From assembly GCA_963699175.1 (NCBI GenBank), contig OY969418.1, forward strand, positions 1,666,791 through 1,730,790: 64,000 nt of DNA. Direction: 5' to 3'. The notes under the pieces are model-generated. The model did no database searches. It was not told the origin of the DNA and saw only the letters and a list, made by a program, of their open reading frames with translations. A program made the translations under genes and the position numbers. Positions 33,738 to 51,688 of the stretch are shown in pieces (within the stretch, counting starts at the first letter, position 1; each line of letters opens with the position of its first letter). Origin of the DNA: an uncultured Acidobacteriota bacterium (GTDB taxonomy: Bacteria; Acidobacteriota; Blastocatellia; RBC074).

Positions 33738-33820
33738 CGGTACAGGGAGCGGTAGCGGCTTGGGGACGTTAGGTACGCAGAATTTTGCAGTTACCAGGTC
33801 GCTACCGCTCCCTGTACCGC
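33738..33820. repeat. palindromic intergenic element, family D copy 2
   Basis: GCGGTACAGGGAGCGGTAGCG ... ACCAGGTCGCTACCGCTCCCTGTACCGC. Nearly the same arm sequence as 3275-3360. Confidence 0.7.
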
Positions 33821-33933
33821 AACAAAGTCACCAAGTCGCTACCACTCGCGTGTACCGCACAAATTAACAAAGCCGTGATGGTATGAGGTGCAATGAGTGA
33901 TGTCAACCACAGGTTGCGAGCAACCAGAAGCGT

Positions 33934-44798: not shown

Positions 44799-45200
44799 TC
44801 AAATAAACAGTTCAGATGAGACGTGAAAGAAGTCAGCCAGTTTCTTGGCTTGCGCCTTGCTGATGGCGCGCACCCCGTTGACGGCTTCAGCCGCCCGTTC
44901 GCCTGAACCGAATAACGGCGCCAAGACTTCCTGCTGCAACCCGCGGGCTTCCAGCAAATGCTGTATGACTTGATGCGGCGCTGTTGGTTCAATCGGATAG
45001 TGTTCTTCTTCGTAGTCCTGAATCAGTTTCACGAGCAGATCGAAGAGCTTTACTTCTTCCGGCGACAGGTCGGCTTCACGGCTCATCATTAGCTCAACGA
45101 CCGCCAGCAAGCGTTCATATTCAGCTTCGCTCTCGATGATTTGGGGAAGCGTCGCAGCCAACCAGTCCGCATACTTCTTCGGGCTATATTTAGCAGTCAT
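44799..45200 (-). CDS. HigA-family / Xre-type HTH protein (COG5499-like antitoxin)
   Basis: 133 aa. The C-terminal HTH (LQQEVLAPLFGSGERAAEAVNGVRAISKAQAKKLADFFHVSSELFI) is typical of HigA-like antitoxins. It lies directly downstream of a 460-aa nuclease-like protein instead of a HigB. Confidence 0.6.
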   Translation of the reverse strand: MTAKYSPKKYADWLAATLPQIIESEAEYERLLAVVELMMSREADLSPEEVKLFDLLVKLIQDYEEEHYPIEPTAPHQVIQHLLEARGLQQEVLAPLFGSGERAAEAVNGVRAISKAQAKKLADFFHVSSELFI

Positions 45201-45270
45201 CTTTCCACCTCTCTCGGTCGTATTCGGCGTGGGTTAAAACGTATTTGATGAAGATCGTTTGACGCAAAAT

Positions 45271-46653
45271 CTACCGCAACACCCGCTCCCGCATCCGCCA
45301 CAAACTCTGCGCCGTGAAAGGCTCGCCGTCAAAGACGATCTGCTTCATCCCTTTGCCCTGCCGCTGCAAATACTCCGTCACGTTCATCCACTGGATGCGC
45401 CCGTCGCCGTCACGCACAACTAACATCACGGGGTGAACGCTGGCCCGCCACTGCTCAGCATAATCCGCTTTGGCGATGGTAAAGACCCACCGTTCGCCCT
45501 GCTTGGACAGCGTGAAGTATTCGTCCGATTTGAATTGCAAGTAGACGCGCCGACCGCTCGGTTCGCCTTGGTCGTTCTTGAATTCGATCTCACCGTCAAT
45601 GCCCCAATCGGCCCCGATGGTTGGCCTGAAAATCTGCCCGGCCTCTGCGGCAATAGCCAGGGCGTGCGCTACCAGCAGCAATTCACGGCTCTGGTTATCA
45701 ATCGTGAGGCGGGACTTCTCCTCCAAGCCGCGCACCTCTTGCTGGATTCGCTCCGAAGCAAATTTCTCTTCAATCAGGTCGCGCAGCACAATCGGCTTAC
45801 TACAAAACTGGCAAGGAATTTTCTTCTTGCCGCTCTCAACCGCTTTCTGAATCGCGCGGGTGCTTTCCACCGGCTCACCGCATTTGGGATATGGGCAAAC
45901 GTAGTGGCGCAGGCGGACGACGTGCGGATCCTTCGCCTTCAAATGGTCGTGGATGTAGCGAATGAAAGTTACCTTGGTATCTTCGTTCGCGTGCGGCTCG
46001 CAATAAACCGTGAGTTCGGCGGCTCCTTCGGCCTTCTTGGTCATTTTGAAACCGACGCGCCGGTTGGCATGCGTTCTGAAATCAGCCGCGAAGCGCCAGA
46101 GCCACTTCTCGCCCGTCTCGAAAGCAGCGGTGTGCCGCAGTTTCACCACCAGCGTCGCGTAAATCTCGTCGAGCGGCCCGCTGAATTGATACGTCACCAG
46201 CGCCGACGGATGATCCGGCTGATCGGGCCGTTCGCGCTTGAAGTAGGAGGGAAATACCAGCAACGTGCCAGCCTCAGTATGTTCGCGCAGGCAGAGGCCA
46301 TGATCCACGAGAATTTGGTGCATGGCCCGCAAGACGATCTGCTCTTCGTCGGCTGGCAACCGCTCCATTTTCTCTTTGTCAGCTTTCTGATAGTCGAGGT
46401 CTCCGACCAGCACGCGCTCTTCAGAAATACAGCCGATCTCATCCGTGTGAGCGCGCACGGAACGAATCACTGCCGCCGCGTAAGCGTTGATGCGTTCGGG
46501 CTGAAGCAGTACGAAGTCACCGAACTCCAATTGCCAGACGATGCCTGGCCCGGCCAGCAAGCCCACCACCGCCCGCAACTCTTCCGGCGTGAAGCTTTCG
46601 CCCGGCAGCCGCATTTCAAGCTGCTGCTTCAACTCGCCCATCCGCAGCAACAC
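45271..46653 (-). CDS. 460-aa protein: unknown N-terminal region, C4 zinc ribbon, C-terminal DUF4365-like PD-(D/E)xK nuclease-fold domain
   Basis: CPYPKCGEP...CQFCSKP zinc ribbon. C-terminal GADWGIDGEIEF...RRVYLQFKSDE resembles the DUF4365 signature (D..IDG.IE ... QxK). The start is GTG at 46653 or ATG at 46641. No P-loop seen. Confidence 0.5.
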   Translation of the reverse strand: MLLRMGELKQQLEMRLPGESFTPEELRAVVGLLAGPGIVWQLEFGDFVLLQPERINAYAAAVIRSVRAHTDEIGCISEERVLVGDLDYQKADKEKMERLPADEEQIVLRAMHQILVDHGLCLREHTEAGTLLVFPSYFKRERPDQPDHPSALVTYQFSGPLDEIYATLVVKLRHTAAFETGEKWLWRFAADFRTHANRRVGFKMTKKAEGAAELTVYCEPHANEDTKVTFIRYIHDHLKAKDPHVVRLRHYVCPYPKCGEPVESTRAIQKAVESGKKKIPCQFCSKPIVLRDLIEEKFASERIQQEVRGLEEKSRLTIDNQSRELLLVAHALAIAAEAGQIFRPTIGADWGIDGEIEFKNDQGEPSGRRVYLQFKSDEYFTLSKQGERWVFTIAKADYAEQWRASVHPVMLVVRDGDGRIQWMNVTEYLQRQGKGMKQIVFDGEPFTAQSLWRMRERVLR

Positions 46654-46785
46654 GCGGCCTTCGTCCCTGAGCTTGACGATCTCTTCCTTGATATGTCACA
46701 TGTCCGCGCGGCAGGCGACAAGGAACAATCTACTCATTGTGTCCAATTTGATTTTCAGGACTTCCGATTCGGAGATAAGTTCAAC

Positions 46786-49134
46786 ATGTCTATCAAACGC
46801 CCAGTACCGCATTCTTGGCCAGTGAATGTGCTGTTTGCTTTGTTTTTTGCATCTCTGAGCTTGTCGAGTTGTTCAGAGCAGCCGCGCCAAGGACAGTCAT
46901 CATCTGCCTCACCGAGTCCCCGCATTGAATTCATTTGGCAAACTAAACACGGCAATACTGTTAATTCAGTTGCTTTCTCACCCGATGGTAAAACGATTGT
47001 AAGCGGTAGTGATGACGGAACAGTCGCACTACTTGATGCAGACAAGGGAAAACTCAATCGGACTCTCACGCATAACAATGTTGTTAACTCAGTCGCTTTC
47101 TCACTTGATGGAGGCCTAATTGCGAGTGGCAGCAGTGACAAAACTGTCAAGATTTGGGATCCACATACAGCAGAGGTAAAGCGGATTCTGACTCACGATG
47201 ATGTTGTAACAGCAATTGCTTTCTCGCCGGATGGGAAGACGTTGGCAAGTGGAAACGACATTGACGAGACAGTTGTCGAAACAGTGAAATTATGGGACGT
47301 AGACACAGGTAAACAAAAACGAAGTTTAGTAGAAGATGATCTTAGCCGTGTACGACATTCTTCTGTAGTGAATTCGATTGCTTTTTCACCAGACGGGAAA
47401 TTGCTAGCACGAGCATTTACTCAAAACTGGATAACACTTTGGGAGGCACAAACAGGAAGGCTGGGGCAGCGGCTCGTGCGCCATGGCGCTACAGTGAATT
47501 CACTGCGTTTTTCCCGAGACAGCAAAATGATTGCGAGCGGAGGGAAAGACAGTTCAGTGATTCTGTGGGATGCGCAAACAGGAGAAGTGAAACGAGTTCT
47601 TAGACCGCGCAGGGCACACTGGGTTACTTCAGTTGCTTTCTCACCAGATAGCAAGACGGTGATGAGCGGAGGGCGTGATAAAACAATTAAGTTTTATGAT
47701 GTTGGAACAGGGGAGCTAAAAATGACCCTAACCAGCAACAATGCTGTAACCTCAATTGCGGTTTCGCCTGATGGGCAGGCTTTGGTAAGTGGCGATGAAG
47801 ACGGAATGGTAACGCTGTGGAATGCACGCATTGAGACACGACTAGCGACTTTGACCGGCAGCAAAAGCCCTGAAGTGACCGAAGGTTTTTGGGAGAGCGG
47901 CAGACAATGGATTCAAGCCCATAGAACATTTGCTATTGTTGCTACCCTTATTCTCCTTTGGTTAATTTCTGAAGCCATAGTTAGAAGACGGCGCTCATCA
48001 AATGCTAAGGTGAAGTCCCAAGAGCGTGATGCTTCGCCACACAATTTGAAGCAAACCTTTGATAAGGCTCGCGAAATCCAGAAATTAATTCGTAAGCTCT
48101 TGTCTGAAACCTCCTACGTAACTCCTGAGATCGTCTTGCGGGGCCACGATAAGGCGGTATATTCAGTTATTTTTTCCCCGGATAGCAAGGTAATTGCAAC
48201 TGCAGGTGATGACGGAAAAGTAATTCTATGGGATGTAGCAACAAAAGAGAAAAAATCCGTCTTGGATCATGGCCGGGGAGTTTTAGCACTTGCATTTTCA
48301 CGCGATGGGAAAGTCATAGCCAGTGGATCTATTGATGGCTTGGTGATCGTGTGGAATGCGATAACAGGTGAAGAAATACAGCCGTTCGACACGCAAACGG
48401 AACGGATTCTTGAAAAAGGAGCGAGAAAAACATGGCTGCAGGATGACGATATTCATAGGTGGAATAATGTTACCTCGCTTGCCTTCTCCTCAGACGGAAA
48501 AACGATTGCGAGCTGCGTCAATGGCGGGACGGTGAAGCTATGGGATTTGCAAACGATAAAGGCAAAAAAGACATTAGCTACGAAGACGCCGTTGTTCACG
48601 GTGGCATTCTCCCCTGAGGGAAGATATTTGGTTAGCGGGGGACACGAAATATCATCAAGGGAGGATGACATAGCATTGATATTGTGGGAGGTGCAAACCG
48701 GGGAAGAAAAATGCTCATTAAACGTGCGGAACGCCGGTGGCGTATTTTCCGCAGCGTTTTCGCCAGATGGAAGGGTGTTGGCGCTTGGCAATGACAATGA
48801 TTATGGCAGCGACCAAGCCAATGATGATAATGATGGCGACGCATCAGTTAGGTTGTATTCTCTGCAAAATGGGACTCTTACACAAAAGATGACGCTGAAC
48901 GGCCATAGCCAACCCGTGCGATCAATCGCCTTCTCACCAAATGGTGAGGTAATAGCTAGTGGCAGCGCTGATTGCACAGTGACATTGTGGGGAGTACAGG
49001 GGGTAAAGTGGCAACAGACGCTAAAACATGACGACACAATTACTTCTGTCACATTCTCACCAGACGGAAGTAGACTAGCTTGCGCAAGCGTAAATAAAAC
49101 AGTGAAAGTATGGCGAGTTCAGAGTAAGACCTAA
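46786..49134 (+). CDS. WD40-repeat lipoprotein with two 7-blade propellers separated by a TM helix
   Basis: MSIKRPVPHSWPVNVLFALFFASLSLSSC (lipobox LSSC). 7 WD40 blades (FSPDGKT...GSDDGTV...). TM TFAIVATLILLWLISEAIV plus RRRRSS. 7 more WD40 blades. GC (~45%) is far below that of its neighbours. The track's 45433..49134 ORF is an artefactual upstream extension. Confidence 0.75.
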   Translation: MSIKRPVPHSWPVNVLFALFFASLSLSSCSEQPRQGQSSSASPSPRIEFIWQTKHGNTVNSVAFSPDGKTIVSGSDDGTVALLDADKGKLNRTLTHNNVVNSVAFSLDGGLIASGSSDKTVKIWDPHTAEVKRILTHDDVVTAIAFSPDGKTLASGNDIDETVVETVKLWDVDTGKQKRSLVEDDLSRVRHSSVVNSIAFSPDGKLLARAFTQNWITLWEAQTGRLGQRLVRHGATVNSLRFSRDSKMIASGGKDSSVILWDAQTGEVKRVLRPRRAHWVTSVAFSPDSKTVMSGGRDKTIKFYDVGTGELKMTLTSNNAVTSIAVSPDGQALVSGDEDGMVTLWNARIETRLATLTGSKSPEVTEGFWESGRQWIQAHRTFAIVATLILLWLISEAIVRRRRSSNAKVKSQERDASPHNLKQTFDKAREIQKLIRKLLSETSYVTPEIVLRGHDKAVYSVIFSPDSKVIATAGDDGKVILWDVATKEKKSVLDHGRGVLALAFSRDGKVIASGSIDGLVIVWNAITGEEIQPFDTQTERILEKGARKTWLQDDDIHRWNNVTSLAFSSDGKTIASCVNGGTVKLWDLQTIKAKKTLATKTPLFTVAFSPEGRYLVSGGHEISSREDDIALILWEVQTGEEKCSLNVRNAGGVFSAAFSPDGRVLALGNDNDYGSDQANDDNDGDASVRLYSLQNGTLTQKMTLNGHSQPVRSIAFSPNGEVIASGSADCTVTLWGVQGVKWQQTLKHDDTITSVTFSPDGSRLACASVNKTVKVWRVQSKT

Positions 49135-49164
49135 GATCATAGACGACGCGCCGACCATCCGGCG

Positions 49165-49665
49165 TCACCGCCACTCCATACACACTGTCTGTATGCCATC
49201 TGAAACCTCGCTTGATCGCGCTTGGTCTTTCCGCTCGATCACACGCTCAGTCTCGGCTGCCGCCGGTCGGCAAGCGGCCAACAACCGGGCATACTGCTCC
49301 TCGGAGCGCTGCCGCCAATCCACATACGCGAATTGCTTGAGCGTATACGGGATCTCGGCGTCATCCAGGCGCACGGGGATGAAGCGGCCTTGCTGATTGG
49401 TCGGGTCGTTGAAAAGCGCCGACTGATGCTCGAACCTCACCCATTCCGACGCCGAGGCGTGCTGCGACATCATCAGCACGAGCGTCCGCGCCTGCTCCAA
49501 GCCCTCATGAATCCTGCGCAGGATCGCATCGCCCGGCTTGATCTCCGCTTCGTCGAACCACACGCGCAGCCCGTCCCGGCGCAACCGCTCGGCCAACTCG
49601 CGCACCGCCGGTTTGTCTTGGCTGCTGTGGCTGATGAAGACATCGTATTTGAATTGTTCGGCCAT
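49165..49665 (-). CDS. stand-alone TIR-domain protein
   Basis: MAEQFKYDVFISHSSQDKPAVRELAERLRRDGLRVWFDEAEIKPGD... is the canonical TIR N-terminus. A conserved Glu lies in SASEWVRFEHQ. 166 aa. Confidence 0.8.
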   Translation of the reverse strand: MAEQFKYDVFISHSSQDKPAVRELAERLRRDGLRVWFDEAEIKPGDAILRRIHEGLEQARTLVLMMSQHASASEWVRFEHQSALFNDPTNQQGRFIPVRLDDAEIPYTLKQFAYVDWRQRSEEQYARLLAACRPAAAETERVIERKDQARSSEVSDGIQTVCMEWR

Positions 49666-49752
49666 AGGCTTTGTCAGGTTGGTTTGGCAGTAAATTGAAG
49701 CCGGTGCTTATTTATCTCCGAGACTAGCAACACTTTGAACTGGCGCAGCCTG

Positions 49753-49894
49753 TGGAGTGCGGCGGCTTGACGCCGCTTTGGTATCACCTCAAGGTGCTCC
49801 ACCAGGCGGGCAAGGCTGGCCACGCCGTCTTGGCTTTCCGCTGGCGTCTGCAGCCAAAGCTGATACCAAAGCGGCGTCAAGCCGCCGCACTCCA
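49753..49894. repeat. perfect 34-bp inverted repeat with 74-nt spacer
   Basis: TGGAGTGCGGCGGCTTGACGCCGCTTTGGTATCA ... TGATACCAAAGCGGCGTCAAGCCGCCGCACTCCA, exact reverse complements. It lies between the TIR gene start and the mazF stop. Confidence 0.8.
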
Positions 49895-49934
49895 AAGACG
49901 TTGCGCGTCGAAATAAGCACAGGCTTCAGTAAAT

Positions 49935-50282
49935 TCACAGGCCGAGACAGTAGCGAACCGCGTCCTCGACCTGATTCAAAATTGCGCCGGAGATTTTTCC
50001 AGCAGGCGTCGGCGGAAAACGTGAAGCATCGAGCGAGCGGACTTGGAAACACAGAAAGACAGTTTCCAGCGGCAGCCCGCTGTCGGCAGCAACAACGCGA
50101 ACATTGGTCGGGTAGTTCTGCGGTACGTTCTGGCCTTTTGTCCCTACGACGACTGTAACGACCAGCGGCAGCCGATTGATGGCATCAATCGAAAGCACCA
50201 ACACCGGGCGCTGGCCTGCTTGTTCGCGCCCTTGTGCCGGGTTCAAGTTGACGAAGTAAATCTCGCCGCGCTGAATGGCCAT
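49935..50282 (-). CDS. mazF: MazF/PemK-family type II toxin (mRNA interferase)
   Basis: MAIQRGEIYFVNLNPAQGREQAGQRPVLVLSIDAINR is the PemK/MazF signature. 115 aa. Confidence 0.75.
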   Translation of the reverse strand: MAIQRGEIYFVNLNPAQGREQAGQRPVLVLSIDAINRLPLVVTVVVGTKGQNVPQNYPTNVRVVAADSGLPLETVFLCFQVRSLDASRFPPTPAGKISGAILNQVEDAVRYCLGL

Positions 50283-50285
50283 CAG

Positions 50286-50525
50286 CTATCCTCTTTCTTC
50301 GGTGAGCAGCCCGTCCGTTTCCGTCCCGGCAAATTCAGCTTCGATTTCCCGCAATTCGCGTTGAATATCCGGGTCGGCGGCCATCGCGGCCAACTGCTCT
50401 TCAATGCGCTGTGGCTGGTCGGCGCGTCCGAGTAGATCAGCAACGCGCTTGATGATTTGCAATTGTTCGTTAGGCGAAAGCTGTTGCACCTGGCTCATAA
50501 TCAAATCGAGTTGATTGGCAACCAC
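50286..50525 (-). CDS. type II antitoxin (TIGR02574-like addiction-module component)
   Basis: 79 aa. LSPNEQLQIIKRVADLL motif. GTG start with RBS AAGGAGG. The gene lies 3 nt upstream of mazF. Confidence 0.55.
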   Translation of the reverse strand: MVANQLDLIMSQVQQLSPNEQLQIIKRVADLLGRADQPQRIEEQLAAMAADPDIQRELREIEAEFAGTETDGLLTEERG

Positions 50526-50580
50526 CGTTTTACCTCCTTGTTGGCAGCATCCGGATTATACGCAACCGTAGCGCAATTCA

Positions 50581-50690
50581 GCCAGCCGCGCCGGGCAGTT
50601 CCAAGGCAACCGCTCGGCCAACTCGCGCACCGCCGGTTTGGCTTGGCTGCTGTGGCTGATGAAAACATCGTATTTGAATTGTTCGGCCAT
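50581..50690 (-). pseudogene. duplicated 5' fragment of the TIR gene
   Basis: 50606-50693 matches 49581-49668 (88 bp, 2 mismatches). It encodes MAEQFKYDVFISHSSQAKPAVRELAERL and then diverges to a stop. Confidence 0.75.
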
Positions 50691-50768
50691 AGGTTTCCCC
50701 CTCGACGCTAGCAATCAATCCCTCAGCCTGCGGCAGCAGGCGACAGCATAAAGCCTGGGGTGGAGCGC

Positions 50769-50802
50769 GGCAGCGCGGAACCCCAGGATAGCGGATGATG
50801 AA
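50769..50802. repeat. REP-like palindrome 1
   Basis: CCTGGGGTGGAGCGCGGCAGCGCGGAACCCCAGG. Confidence 0.7.
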
Positions 50803-50908
50803 TTACGCAAGCCCGTGAAACGGGCGGCAGCTAAGCGTTGCTAAGCGCGCCGTATTGTACACGCTGTCGCTCGCTCCGCGAGCTTGTGTGTTCGTGTGCG
50901 TGCGTTTC

Positions 50909-50948
50909 CTGGGGTTTCGCTCCGCTGACGCTGTGCTCCACCCCAGGC
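50909..50948. repeat. REP-like palindrome 2
   Basis: CCTGGGGTTTCGCTCCGCTGACGCTGTGCTCCACCCCAGG. Confidence 0.7.
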
Positions 50949-50995
50949 TTTAGGCTGGCACCCGCTTCGCGGGTTGAGAGCGCGGCACTTAGGCG

Positions 50996-51417
50996 TCAAA
51001 TGTGCCGCTCGTCATATTCGATGCCATTGGCTTTCAAAAATCCGATGAATTCGTCACGAAACGATTGTTTGCGATGATGCGCTTGTTGGCGCGCAATGTA
51101 TTCCTGCACAGCTTGTACATTGGATTGGCTAACGGTGAATGCGCCATAACCACGTTGCCACGCGAAATCTTGCGCGTCGGGAAAGATGTCGTGCATCCAG
51201 CCGCTCGCATTCGCCTTGAGATCGCGCAGCACATCCGACACTGACTTATCCGGTCGCAGCTTTGCCAGCAGATGAACGTGATCTTCCGTGCCGTTGATGC
51301 CGAGCGACATTCCGCCCAGTCCGCGTAGAGTCTGGCTTGATAAGCCTCGGTGATAATCGGTTGGCGCTCTTTGGTCGAGAAGATGATGTGATAGAGCAGA
51401 TTGGCGTAAGACGATGA
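50996..51417 (-). pseudogene. tnpA: IS200/IS605-family TnpA (REP-associated tyrosine transposase-like), frameshifted
   Basis: N-terminal part MSSSYANLLYHIIFSTKERQPIITEAYQARLYA with RBS AGGAGGAAG. The frame shifts near 51310. The C-terminal part GGMSLGINGTEDHVHLLAKLRP...FAWQRGYGAFTVSQ... is in another frame. HxH and GY motifs are present. Confidence 0.7.
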
Positions 51418-51478
51418 CATGGCTTCCTCCTGGTGGCTGTCGCCTGTGAGCGCGGGCTGGTGTTGTTTGTTACGTAGG

Positions 51479-51510
51479 CCGGGGTGAAACGCGGCAGCGC
51501 GGGACCCCAG
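51479..51510. repeat. REP-like palindrome 3
   Basis: CCGGGGTGAAACGCGGCAGCGCGGGACCCCAGG. Confidence 0.7.
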
Positions 51511-51617
51511 GAAACGCACGCCCGCAAACACGCAAGCTCGCGGGGCGAGCGACAGCTTGATAGAAAACAACTGGCTGTCGCCCGTTTCACGGGCTTACAC
51601 AATTTACCATCCGCCAA

Positions 51618-51652
51618 CCCTGGGGTTGCGCGCTATCGCGCTTCACCCCAGG
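51618..51652. repeat. REP-like palindrome 4
   Basis: CCCTGGGGTTGCGCGCTATCGCGCTTCACCCCAGG. Confidence 0.7.
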
Positions 51653-51688
51653 CTTTACGATTTCGCCTGCTGTCGCAGGCTGGATCAG

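What the first reader, a model, noticed from the sequence alone, without database searches (positions are those of the whole stretch)
49581..50693. 88-bp duplicate of the TIR gene 5' end brackets a mazF/antitoxin cassette
50606-50693 repeats 49581-49668 (TIR start codon plus first 28 codons) with 2 mismatches. Between the copies lie the antitoxin gene, mazF and a perfect 34-bp inverted repeat. This looks like the footprint of a cassette insertion or duplication that carried the TIR promoter-proximal segment. Alternatively it is a recombination hotspot for swapping effectors behind a constant 5' segment.
Basis: seen in the sequence. Interest (0 to 1): 0.5.

Follow-up and report, generated by a model that had tools for sequence, protein, structure and literature searches.

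The report
TIR gene fragment beside mazEF cassette
The 88-bp repeat is real, but it is a recombination scar: a dead copy of the start of a TIR immune-type gene at the edge of a toxin-antitoxin cassette that habitually sits in front of such genes, not the footprint of a fresh insertion.

Summary
The repeat is confirmed: 49581-49671 and 50606-50696, 91 nt with 3 mismatches, and only two copies in the window. All genes lie on the minus strand, in this order:
- a TIR 5' fragment (copy B)
- an antitoxin gene
- mazF
- a 231-bp MITE-like palindrome with an 8-bp target duplication
- the TIR gene (copy A), itself a truncated TIR-WD40 gene

In relatives, the order mazE, mazF, a ~30-nt spacer, then the TIR start codon recurs in five contigs, representing about four distinct genomic settings. 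The mazF-TIR junction is therefore old and was not created here.

In four loci, the 30 nt just upstream of the conserved mazE promoter block match TIR nt 85-114. The cassette family thus carries a short, decayed TIR relic at its left border.

In the window, copy B abuts this relic in register. Identity to copy A falls from 97% to about 56% at exactly that point (p = 6e-7).

Most likely, B was copied from gene A, 1 kb away, by recombination primed by the relic. That could be ectopic gene conversion or unequal exchange followed by deletion.

It is not a target-site duplication. Nothing shows that the 88-bp segment is a hotspot for swapping effectors.

The feature is ordinary in kind and of modest interest.

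The parts
49581..49671 (-). Copy A: positions -6 to +85 of the intact-start TIR gene (start codon 49663-49665).
   Evidence: Repeat family D5; unique pair in the window.
50606..50696 (-). Copy B: a dead duplicate of TIR -6..+85, 3 mismatches to A. It carries the derived change D17A (GAC to GCC; every other TIR compared has GAC).
   Evidence: Identity of A to B over codons 1-28 is 97.6%, against 81-89% for either copy to the TIR genes of L001, L003, L004 and L090 and 93% for A to L094.
50576..50605 (-). Decayed TIR relic (TIR nt ~85-114) that continues copy B in register. It is the ancestral left border of this mazEF cassette family.
   Evidence: It matches TIR nt 85-114 at 18 of 30 positions in fixed register (26/5000 shuffles). 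The same segment in L094 scores 20/30 (2/5000), in L088 23/30 (0/5000) and in L096 19/30 (1/5000). See alignment A3. The identity break lies at site 91 (Fisher p = 6e-7; 0/5000 permutations).
50526..50575 (-). Conserved mazE upstream block: TGCGCTACGG-TTGCGTATAAT (TATAAT at 50555-50560) and the Shine-Dalgarno AAGGAGG (50533-50539). This is the presumed mazEF promoter/operator.
   Evidence: Conserved in the window, L004, L088, L094 and L096. The function is inferred: the sigma-70 consensus scan found no full promoter.
50286..50525 (-). Antitoxin gene (79 aa, GTG start) of the mazEF-type pair.
   Evidence: No Pfam family. Homologues lie immediately upstream of MazF in 57 of 80 genome loci. Close relatives are 70-96% identical.
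49935..50282 (-). mazF/pemK-family toxin gene (115 aa).
   Evidence: PF02452, 82.4 bits against a cut-off of 23.1. NCBIfam ChpB/MazF hits fall below the equivalog cut-offs. Relatives at 70-83% aa identity occur across many phyla.
49689..49935 (.). MITE-like palindromic insertion. The body is 49697-49927 (231 bp, terminal inverted repeats GAAGCC...GGCTTC). The 8-bp target-site duplication AGTAAATT lies at 49689-49696 and 49928-49935; the latter overlaps the mazF stop codon.
   Evidence: Hairpin of -84.7 kcal/mol, z = -9.6. Absent from L004, L090 and L094. Removing the element and one duplicate restores a 30-nt spacer, the same length as in L090 (30) and close to L004/L094 (31). Each arm contains a terminator-like hairpin.
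49141..49665 (-). TIR gene (ORF 49165-49665, 166 aa), the frameshifted and truncated 5' part of a TIR-WD40 gene. A WD40 relic, VYGVAVTPDGRRVV, lies in another frame at ~49141-49183.
   Evidence: Pfam TIR_2. P0164, a member of the same cluster at 90% identity, continues into the WD40 repeat FKGHTGTVWGVAVTPDGRR. Homology to the L094 TIR-WD40 gene runs to 49141.
50556..50714 (-). 52-aa ORF through copy B. From the ATG at 50690 it encodes 28 TIR residues plus 16 unrelated residues. Its stop codon lies inside the TATAAT box, and a purine-rich GAGGGGG precedes the ATG.
   Evidence: No Pfam hit. The start-codon part is absent from L088, L094 and L096, so the ORF is not conserved.
50722..51682 (-). 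Neighbouring element. REP-like inverted repeats (50722-50966 and 51436-51682) flank a frameshifted IS200/RAYT-type Y1 transposase gene (~50996-51420). Its nearest repeat starts 27 nt (50697-50723) from copy B.
   Evidence: Inverted repeats I1-I3. PF01797, E = 2.6e-17. NCBIfam IS200 and REP-tyrosine-transposase hits. A related REP copy lies upstream of mazE in L090.

Best explanation
Copy B is a non-functional fragment of the 5' end of the TIR gene. It lies at the left border of a two-gene mazEF toxin-antitoxin cassette. In this acidobacterial lineage, that cassette habitually sits about 30 nt in front of a TIR or TIR-WD40 gene.

Shown:
- The cassette family carries, fused to its mazE promoter block, a short decayed relic of TIR nt ~72/85-114. 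An older rearrangement therefore joined a TIR 5' end to mazE.
- In the window, a nearly identical copy of TIR -6..+85 abuts this relic exactly in register.
- Identity to gene A, 1 kb downstream, drops abruptly at that point.

Inferred: the relic acted as the homologous primer for a recent recombination that copied the start of gene A into the position upstream of mazE. Two routes fit. One is one-ended ectopic gene conversion, meaning break repair that uses gene A as template. The other is unequal exchange giving a tandem duplication, followed by loss of the upstream cassette copy. The far end was joined illegitimately at position -6, 27 nt from a REP/RAYT element that could have supplied the break.

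Later, a 231-bp MITE inserted between mazF and TIR.

Inferred consequences:
- B encodes no working TIR domain.
- The relic contributes the sequence just upstream of the mazE -10 box.
- The two 91-bp direct repeats are long enough for RecA-type recombination to delete the 1,025-bp segment carrying mazEF and the MITE. The addictive toxin-antitoxin pair would oppose that loss.
For: - The repeat is real and unique in the window.
- mazE, mazF, spacer, TIR ATG recurs in L004, L090, L091-93 and L094, with a conserved spacer.
- No TIR lies beside MazF in 80 other genomes, so the linkage is specific to this lineage.
- The 30 nt upstream of the conserved promoter block match TIR nt 85-114 in four loci: 26/5000, 2/5000, 0/5000 and 1/5000 shuffles. 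The next 30 nt upstream are unrelated in L094, L088 and L096 (alignment A3).
- A and B differ at 3 of the first 91 sites but at 12 of the next 27. Fisher p = 6e-7, and the maximal chi-square breakpoint falls at site 91 (0/5000 permutations).
- A to B is 97.6% identical, against 81-93% to all other TIR genes.
- The window's cassette (MazF 92-94% to L090, L086 and L096; 85% to L094) is nested among cassettes that carry only the short relic. B is therefore most simply a re-acquisition.
- B shares only 6 nt of the mazF-TIR spacer type upstream of its ATG.
- The TIR genes of this family are mosaics, so recombination among them is common.
Against: - Each relic is only ~30-40 nt. A profile search (nhmmer) gave non-significant E-values (0.4 and 3.1), and one control scored 2.2.
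- The relics in the four loci are homologous to one another, so they are not four independent tests.
- The window tail is the weakest of the four (18/30).
- The source genome and its closest strains could not be retrieved, so no cassette-free or B-free allele of this exact locus was seen.
- The route (conversion, duplication plus deletion, or insertion into a resident gene) cannot be told apart.
- The role of the REP/RAYT element is conjecture.
Confidence: 0.6

Rival explanations
1. Old duplication kept alive. The original event duplicated ~120 nt (-6..+114) of the TIR 5' end around mazEF. The window lineage kept the whole fragment, and repeated gene conversion from gene A kept its first 91 nt fresh. 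The other lineages lost nt 1-~80.
For: The in-register relic and the identity break fit this as well as the main model. L004 shows that long upstream TIR copies can persist.
Against: It needs loss of the same 5' part in L088, L094 and L096, including L096, whose cassette is close to the window's. L004's upstream copy has a different junction (TIR nt ~357 joined at mazE -44) and the native upstream flank of the L001 gene, so it is a separate event.
Confidence: 0.15
2. Cassette integration into a resident TIR gene. A mazEF unit carrying TIR-derived homology entered a cassette-free TIR gene by homologous or Campbell-type recombination. The unit could be a circle or a linear fragment from a near-identical donor. 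The result would be the resident 5' end (B, with its own ribosome-binding region), then the cassette, then the gene.
For: B is preceded by a purine-rich GAGGGGG, while A has none. In L004 the upstream TIR copy carries the native upstream region of a TIR-WD40 gene (L001 type). The cassette occurs in front of TIR genes with different 3' partners, WD40 versus the ABC-3C genes. The relic travels with the cassette even where no TIR follows (L088, L096).
Against: No recombinase lies between the repeats. Donor and recipient would have had to be ~98% identical over nt 1-85. The mazF-spacer-TIR junction is older than the window lineage. No empty site was found. The cassette is absent from the plasmid, phage and viral collections.
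Confidence: 0.12
3. Functional element. B encodes a 52-aa leader or decoy peptide, or acts with A as a programmed excision switch controlling mazEF and TIR expression.
For: There is an intact ATG preceded by a purine-rich stretch. The ORF's stop codon lies in the -10 box of mazE, and the repeats are direct.
Against: The start-codon part is missing in L088, L094 and L096. B carries a derived D17A change at a residue conserved in every other TIR compared here. The ORF has no family match.
Confidence: 0.05
4. Assembly artefact that duplicated the gene start.
For: None specific. Repeats can in principle be mis-assembled.
Against: The copies differ at 3 positions and have different flanks. A related two-copy layout occurs in an independent assembly (L004). 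The TIR protein is recorded on a 9.5-Mb contig.
Confidence: 0.02

Closest known systems
Chromosomal type II MazEF/PemIK toxin-antitoxin cassettes in variable or defence islands
   Same: The pair is compact: antitoxin first, a 3-nt gap, a PemK/MazF-fold toxin, and its own ribosome-binding site and conserved upstream block. Very close relatives are scattered across phyla and genomic settings.
   Different: The antitoxin matches no described family. This sub-lineage is repeatedly placed ~30 nt in front of a TIR or TIR-WD40 gene and carries a TIR-derived relic in its promoter region. I did not find this described.
Ectopic gene conversion or unequal recombination between a gene and a nearby fragment (own knowledge: tufA/tufB concerted evolution, pilS-to-pilE conversion)
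   Same: Identity within the genome is much higher than between orthologues, and there is a sharp tract boundary inside continuing homology.
   Different: Only one side has pre-existing homology, a ~30-40-nt relic. The other junction, at position -6, is illegitimate. The recipient is a dead fragment with no evident variation function.
Integrative elements that insert into the 5' end of a gene and supply a replacement promoter and N-terminus (dusA-specific elements, SXT in prfC; PMC8409611)
   Same: An insert sits in a gene's 5' end, is flanked by repeated gene-start sequence, and leaves the gene with an intact start.
   Different: Those elements are 20 kb or larger, encode a tyrosine integrase and an excision factor, and have ~21-bp att repeats. 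Here the insert is ~0.7 kb (1 kb with the MITE), has no recombinase, and has 91-bp repeats with homology-type borders.
Homology-facilitated illegitimate recombination (own knowledge: de Vries and Wackernagel 2002)
   Same: One junction is formed in homology and the other by illegitimate joining.
   Different: The classical cases replace or delete resident DNA during transformation. Here the outcome is a duplication, and whether uptake of foreign DNA was involved is unknown.
Miniature inverted-repeat transposable elements (MITEs)
   Same: The 231-bp palindrome has terminal inverted repeats, an 8-bp target duplication, no ORF, and a matching empty site in relatives.
   Different: Only one copy is visible in the 64 kb and none in the fetched loci. 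No partner transposase was identified.

Membership tests
Type II toxin-antitoxin pair of the MazEF/PemIK kind | Toxin with a PemK/MazF fold | tested here: met
   PF02452, E = 3.3e-23, 82.4 bits against a cut-off of 23.1, covering 107 of 109 profile positions. NCBIfam MazF/ChpB equivalog cut-offs were not reached, so it is a family member, not an equivalog of E. coli MazF.
Type II toxin-antitoxin pair of the MazEF/PemIK kind | Small antitoxin gene immediately upstream, co-oriented and conserved as a pair | tested here: met
   The 79-aa ORF ends 3 nt before mazF. Homologues occupy the same position in 57 of 80 genome loci and in L004, L086, L090, L091, L094 and L096.
Type II toxin-antitoxin pair of the MazEF/PemIK kind | Antitoxin belongs to a known antitoxin fold (AbrB/MazE, RHH and others) | tested here: inconclusive
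   No Pfam, NCBIfam or PADLOC match. One distant homologue (P0162) carries PF18929/DUF5678.
Type II toxin-antitoxin pair of the MazEF/PemIK kind | Toxicity that the antitoxin neutralises; autoregulated promoter | not testable with these tools
   Needs expression experiments.
   TIR-derived sequence continues 30 nt past the 3' edge of B. On the A side, the spacer next to mazF is continuous with that of relatives.
   No empty site was found. Relatives have mazEF-TIR without a recognisable upstream copy (L090, L091-93, L094), or with a different, diverged upstream copy (L004). The closest strains could not be retrieved.
Ectopic gene conversion / homology-primed copy | Abrupt change of identity within a continuing alignment | tested here: met
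   3 differences in 91 sites against 12 in 27. Fisher p = 6e-7. The maximal chi-square falls at site 91, 0/5000 permutations.
Ectopic gene conversion / homology-primed copy | The two copies in one genome are more alike than orthologues in other genomes | tested here: met
   97.6% against 81-93%. In L004 the two copies are 82-89% identical, so there is no conversion there.
Ectopic gene conversion / homology-primed copy | Pre-existing homology at the recipient site | tested here: inconclusive
   A relic of TIR nt 85-114 is supported by the fixed-register tests but not by nhmmer E-values. It lies on one side only.
MITE | Terminal inverted repeats, target-site duplication and no coding capacity | tested here: met
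   Terminal repeats GAAGCCGGTGCTTATTT / AAATAAGCACAGGCTTC; the 8-bp AGTAAATT occurs twice; 231 bp.
MITE | Empty site in relatives | tested here: met
   The reconstructed spacer is 30 nt, against 30-31 nt in L090, L004 and L094.
MITE | Multiple copies in the genome | not testable with these tools
   There is one copy in the window and none in the fetched loci. The rest of the genome was not available.
Integrase-driven element in the 5' end of a gene (dusA/prfC type) | Element-encoded site-specific recombinase and short att repeats | tested here: not met
   Only mazE, mazF and the MITE lie between the repeats. The nearby Y1 transposase lies outside the repeats and is frameshifted.
Bacterial TIR-domain defence proteins (Thoeris ThsB-like, TIR-WD40) | TIR domain | tested here: met
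   PF13676, E = 1.8e-31. The best PADLOC hit is PDC-S66, E = 1.4e-22, and there are ThsB-like hits.
Bacterial TIR-domain defence proteins (Thoeris ThsB-like, TIR-WD40) | Complete system partners (for example ThsA) or an intact sensor domain | tested here: not met
   No ThsA-type partner was found among the neighbours screened. The WD40 part is lost: there is a frameshift, and homology ends at 49141.

The most novel reading that the evidence does not exclude
This mazEF cassette lineage may carry TIR-derived sequence at both borders: the relic fused to its promoter, and the start of the TIR gene after a fixed 30-nt spacer. It may use these as built-in homology arms to place itself, without any recombinase of its own, in front of TIR-domain immune genes of different architectures (TIR-WD40, TIR plus ABC-3C genes). 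The result would be a toxin-antitoxin-guarded, and possibly co-regulated, three-gene mazE-mazF-TIR module. Copy B in the window and the long upstream TIR copy in L004 would then be two independent footprints of that targeting.
Probability: 0.15. Interest if true: 0.6.

Novelty: new member of a known kind. Interest (0 to 1): 0.3.

Why it matters
Taken alone, the repeat is a local rearrangement scar in a decaying defence-type island. That island holds a truncated TIR-WD40 gene, a MITE insertion and a frameshifted transposase.

Its value is as a worked example. Short gene relics at cassette borders can seed new duplications, and near-identical repeats around a small cassette should not be read automatically as insertion footprints.

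The side result has more potential: a mazEF sub-lineage is repeatedly linked to TIR genes, with a conserved spacer and a TIR-derived promoter region. If that linkage is functional or self-targeting, it would connect toxin-antitoxin modules to TIR-based immunity in a new way.

Tried and rejected
- The metagenome scan with the antitoxin returned only one distant relative.
- The plasmid and phage collections gave no match to the cassette.
- The viral-contig scan with the antitoxin found nothing. The single promoter-block hit in a viral contig has no mazE and is a chance match.
- Rfam found nothing relevant in 44-56 kb.
- The sigma-70 consensus scan found no promoter, so the promoter assignment rests on conservation only.
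- nhmmer with a TIR 5' profile did not give significant E-values for the relics. I relied on fixed-register tests instead.
- I considered and rejected a giant target-site duplication, because the borders do not fit.
- I rejected an integron cassette: there is no attC-like site or integrase, and the hairpin is a MITE with a target duplication.
- I rejected the idea that the + strand WD40 gene is an inverted part of the TIR-WD40 gene. Its GC is 47% against 59-64%, and it shows only generic 25-35% WD40 similarity.
- A test for mosaicism in the cassette-linked TIR genes showed mosaics, but no clean pattern in which the 5' part follows the cassette.
Full report
**1. The observation**

The window contains a direct repeat, 49581-49671 and 50606-50696, 91 nt long with 3 mismatches and 1025-nt spacing. 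Sub-patterns of 35 and 49 nt occur exactly twice in the window, and no shuffle gave two matches. tblastn finds no further TIR-like sequence in the 64 kb.

All relevant genes are on the minus strand. In transcription order they are:
- a 52-aa ORF through copy B, 50714/50690 to 50556
- a 79-aa ORF, 50525 to 50286
- a PemK/MazF-family toxin gene, 50282 to 49935 (PF02452, 82 bits)
- a long palindrome
- a 166-aa TIR gene, 49665 to 49165 (PF13676, E = 1.8e-31), whose first 28 codons plus 6 upstream nt form copy A

**2. The pieces between the repeats**

The 79-aa ORF has no family match. Its homologues nevertheless sit directly upstream of MazF in 57 of 80 genomes recovered with MazF, so it is the cognate antitoxin by conserved pairing. 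MazF relatives at 70-83% aa identity occur in Chloroflexota, Cyanobacteria, Planctomycetota and Acidobacteriota. That spread is typical of a horizontally mobile toxin-antitoxin pair. None of those 80 loci has TIR sequence nearby.

The inverted repeat is the core of a 231-bp palindromic element, 49697-49927 (hairpin -84.7 kcal/mol, z = -9.6). It has terminal inverted repeats and an 8-bp duplication, AGTAAATT, at 49689-49696 and 49928-49935. Relatives lack the element. Removing it together with one duplicate restores a 30-nt mazF-TIR spacer, the same length as in L090 and one nt shorter than in L004 and L094. It is therefore a MITE-type insertion that arrived after the mazEF-TIR arrangement existed.

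**3. Relatives**

The TIR protein is recorded on a 9.5-Mb contig, and its closest homologues come from Acidobacteria MAGs. Many homologues are TIR-WD40 fusions. I fetched contexts for TIR relatives and for close antitoxin relatives at 70-86% identity.

The order mazE, mazF, ~30-nt spacer (CCTGACAAARCCT), TIR start codon is present in:
- L004
- L090
- L091-93, where an IS110 element interrupts the TIR gene after ~57 codons
- L094, where a TIR-WD40 gene follows

The nucleotide identity to the window is 78-87%. These loci have different flanks:
- L004: YdjC, DUF2975 and an HTH gene upstream, and ABC-3C genes downstream
- L090 and L091-93: a GMC oxidoreductase gene upstream
- L094: an MqsA/HTH-like gene upstream and DUF4365 downstream

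L094 shares the downstream DUF4365 gene with the window, so those two are the same kind of locus.

The same cassette lineage also occurs without TIR (L086/87, L096). In L088/89, mazE is paired with a Tox-REase-2-like gene instead of mazF.

The junction between mazF and gene A is therefore ancestral. It was not created by an insertion in the window lineage.

**4. What copy B is**

An upstream TIR fragment that includes the start codon exists only in the window and in L004, and the two are not the same event. L004's copy runs to about TIR nt 357. It joins the mazE region at about -44 and is preceded by the native upstream region of the TIR-WD40 gene seen in L001 (90-92% identity to that gene). 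It is only 82-89% identical to the TIR gene downstream of it. The window's B has 6 nt of the mazF-TIR spacer type (AAACCT) before its ATG.

The multiple alignment of TIR starts showed that B does not simply end at 50606. The next ~27-30 nt still align with TIR genes but are much more diverged. To A the match is 15 of 27, and to the L094 gene it is 18 of 27, including a shared 1-nt insertion. The mazE-upstream regions of the window, L094, L088 and L096 align in register with TIR nt 66-114. They then switch together to a conserved block, TGCGCTnCnn-TTGCGTATAAT ... AAGGAGGT.

I ran a fixed-register test anchored on that block. It compares the 30 nt just upstream of the block with TIR nt 85-114:

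| Locus | Matches of 30 | Shuffles reaching this score |
|---|---|---|
| window | 18 | 26/5000 |
| L094 | 20 | 2/5000 |
| L088 | 23 | 0/5000 |
| L096 | 19 | 1/5000 |

The preceding 30 nt (TIR nt 55-84 register) are unrelated in L094, L088 and L096. Free local alignments had pointed to the same place.

There are caveats. nhmmer E-values for these short segments are not significant (0.4 and 3.1, with a control at 2.2). The four relics also share ancestry, so they count as one old event seen four times.

Between A and B there are 3 differences in the first 91 sites and 12 in the next 27. Fisher's p is 6e-7, and the best breakpoint is at site 91, reached by 0 of 5000 permutations.

**5. Interpretation**

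The cassette family ancestrally carries a short TIR relic (about nt 72/85-114) fused to its promoter region. The window's cassette is nested among cassettes with only that relic: its MazF is 92-94% identical to L090, L086 and L096, and 85% to L094. The nearly identical block -6..+85, which abuts the relic in register, is therefore best explained as a recent homology-primed copy of the start of gene A.

Three routes could produce it:
- one-ended gene conversion or break repair that uses gene A, 1 kb away, as template
- unequal exchange at the relic, giving a tandem duplication, followed by deletion of the upstream cassette copy down to position -6
- less likely, entry of the cassette into a resident TIR gene from a near-identical donor

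The left junction at -6 is illegitimate. It lies 27 nt from the REP-like repeat of a frameshifted Y1 (IS200/RAYT-type) transposase, which could have been the source of a break. That last point is conjecture.

B carries a derived D17A change at a residue conserved in all the other TIRs compared here. Its start-codon part is absent from the other cassettes. I therefore regard it as non-functional.

The following consequences are inferred, not shown:
- The relic supplies the sequence just upstream of the conserved TATAAT of mazE.
- The stop codon of the B ORF lies inside that TATAAT.
- The two 91-bp repeats could recombine to delete mazEF and the MITE. Toxin-antitoxin addiction would counter-select that loss.
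- The MITE, with a terminator-like hairpin in each arm, now separates TIR from mazEF.

**6. State of the locus**

The TIR gene is itself a remnant. P0164, a member of the same cluster at 90% identity, reads on into a WD40 repeat. The window has a frameshift after ...KDQAR and a WD40 relic in another frame. Homology to the L094 TIR-WD40 gene stops at 49141, 7 nt from the stop codon of an oppositely oriented WD40 gene with 47% GC. That gene is a foreign replacement, not an inversion. Neighbouring genes give defence-type matches in PADLOC. Overall this is a rearranging, partly decayed island.

**7. Comparison with known systems and verdict**

The parts are all of known kinds: a MazF/PemK-type toxin-antitoxin pair, a MITE, a REP/RAYT-like element, a TIR-domain gene and a recombination scar. 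The nearest documented case of an element in a gene's 5' end that supplies a new start is the dusA- and prfC-targeting integrative elements (PMC8409611). Those are large and depend on an integrase, which this locus lacks. A literature search found no description of a mazEF lineage linked to TIR or TIR-WD40 genes.

There is a duplication footprint tied to the cassette. It is not an insertion edge, and the arrangement is old in relatives. The novelty is low: this is a new member of a known kind. The recurrent mazEF-TIR linkage, with its TIR-derived cassette border, is the one aspect worth following up.

Noticed in passing
window 49689-49935: A 231-bp MITE-like palindrome with an 8-bp target duplication (AGTAAATT) is inserted in the 30-nt mazF-TIR spacer. 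One duplicate overlaps the mazF stop codon. Each arm carries a terminator-like hairpin, so the element probably uncouples TIR from mazEF transcription.
   Followed up: yes
window 49141-49183 and 46760-49134: The 166-aa TIR gene is a frameshifted, truncated TIR-WD40 gene. Its WD40 part has been replaced by an oppositely oriented WD40-repeat gene with 47% GC (neighbours are 58-62%). That gene's N-terminus looks like a lipoprotein signal (…FFASLSLSSC). It is a foreign replacement, not an inversion.
   Followed up: partly
window 50722-51682: An IS200/RAYT-type Y1 transposase gene is split by a frameshift near 51310-51325. It is flanked by ~250-bp REP-like inverted repeats. A related REP copy sits upstream of mazE in L090 (5099-5173).
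   Followed up: partly
L004 7392-8510; L090 5201-6163; L091 6001-6780; L094 1249-2506; window 49165-50525: mazE, mazF, a conserved ~30-nt spacer and a TIR or TIR-WD40 start codon recur in five contigs representing about four distinct settings. This suggests a three-gene operon-like module. No TIR lies beside MazF in 80 other genomes.
   Followed up: partly
L088 6001-6800 (also L089): A close antitoxin relative (78%), with the same promoter block and TIR relic, is followed by a Tox-REase-2-like gene instead of mazF. This looks like a toxin swap behind a conserved antitoxin.
   Followed up: no
L003 7211-11437 and L004 8001-11441: In these relatives the TIR gene heads a set of ABC-3C-type genes (a 300-aa protein with a weak CTD10 match, MC6, and DUF2326/CTD10). 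In L003, the position that mazEF occupies in L004 is taken by a DUF5678-like gene plus a weak retropepsin-like gene.
   Followed up: no
L091 6231-7589 (also L092, L093): An IS110-family transposase gene interrupts the TIR gene ~57 codons after its start, directly downstream of mazEF. The gene caller fused MazF and the transposase into one 452-aa product.
   Followed up: no
window 44799-46653: A 133-aa HTH protein matches PD-Lambda-2_B (E = 6.6e-19). The 460-aa DUF4365 protein matches restriction-endonuclease-like domains of PADLOC 'Aga' models. The surroundings look like a defence island, and L094 shares the DUF4365 gene downstream of its TIR-WD40 gene.
   Followed up: partly
window 33793-33821 and L096 2-30, 57-84: A 29-nt sequence in the window matches L096 perfectly in one orientation and at 96% in the other. 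It is probably a small palindromic repeat shared by related genomes.
   Followed up: no
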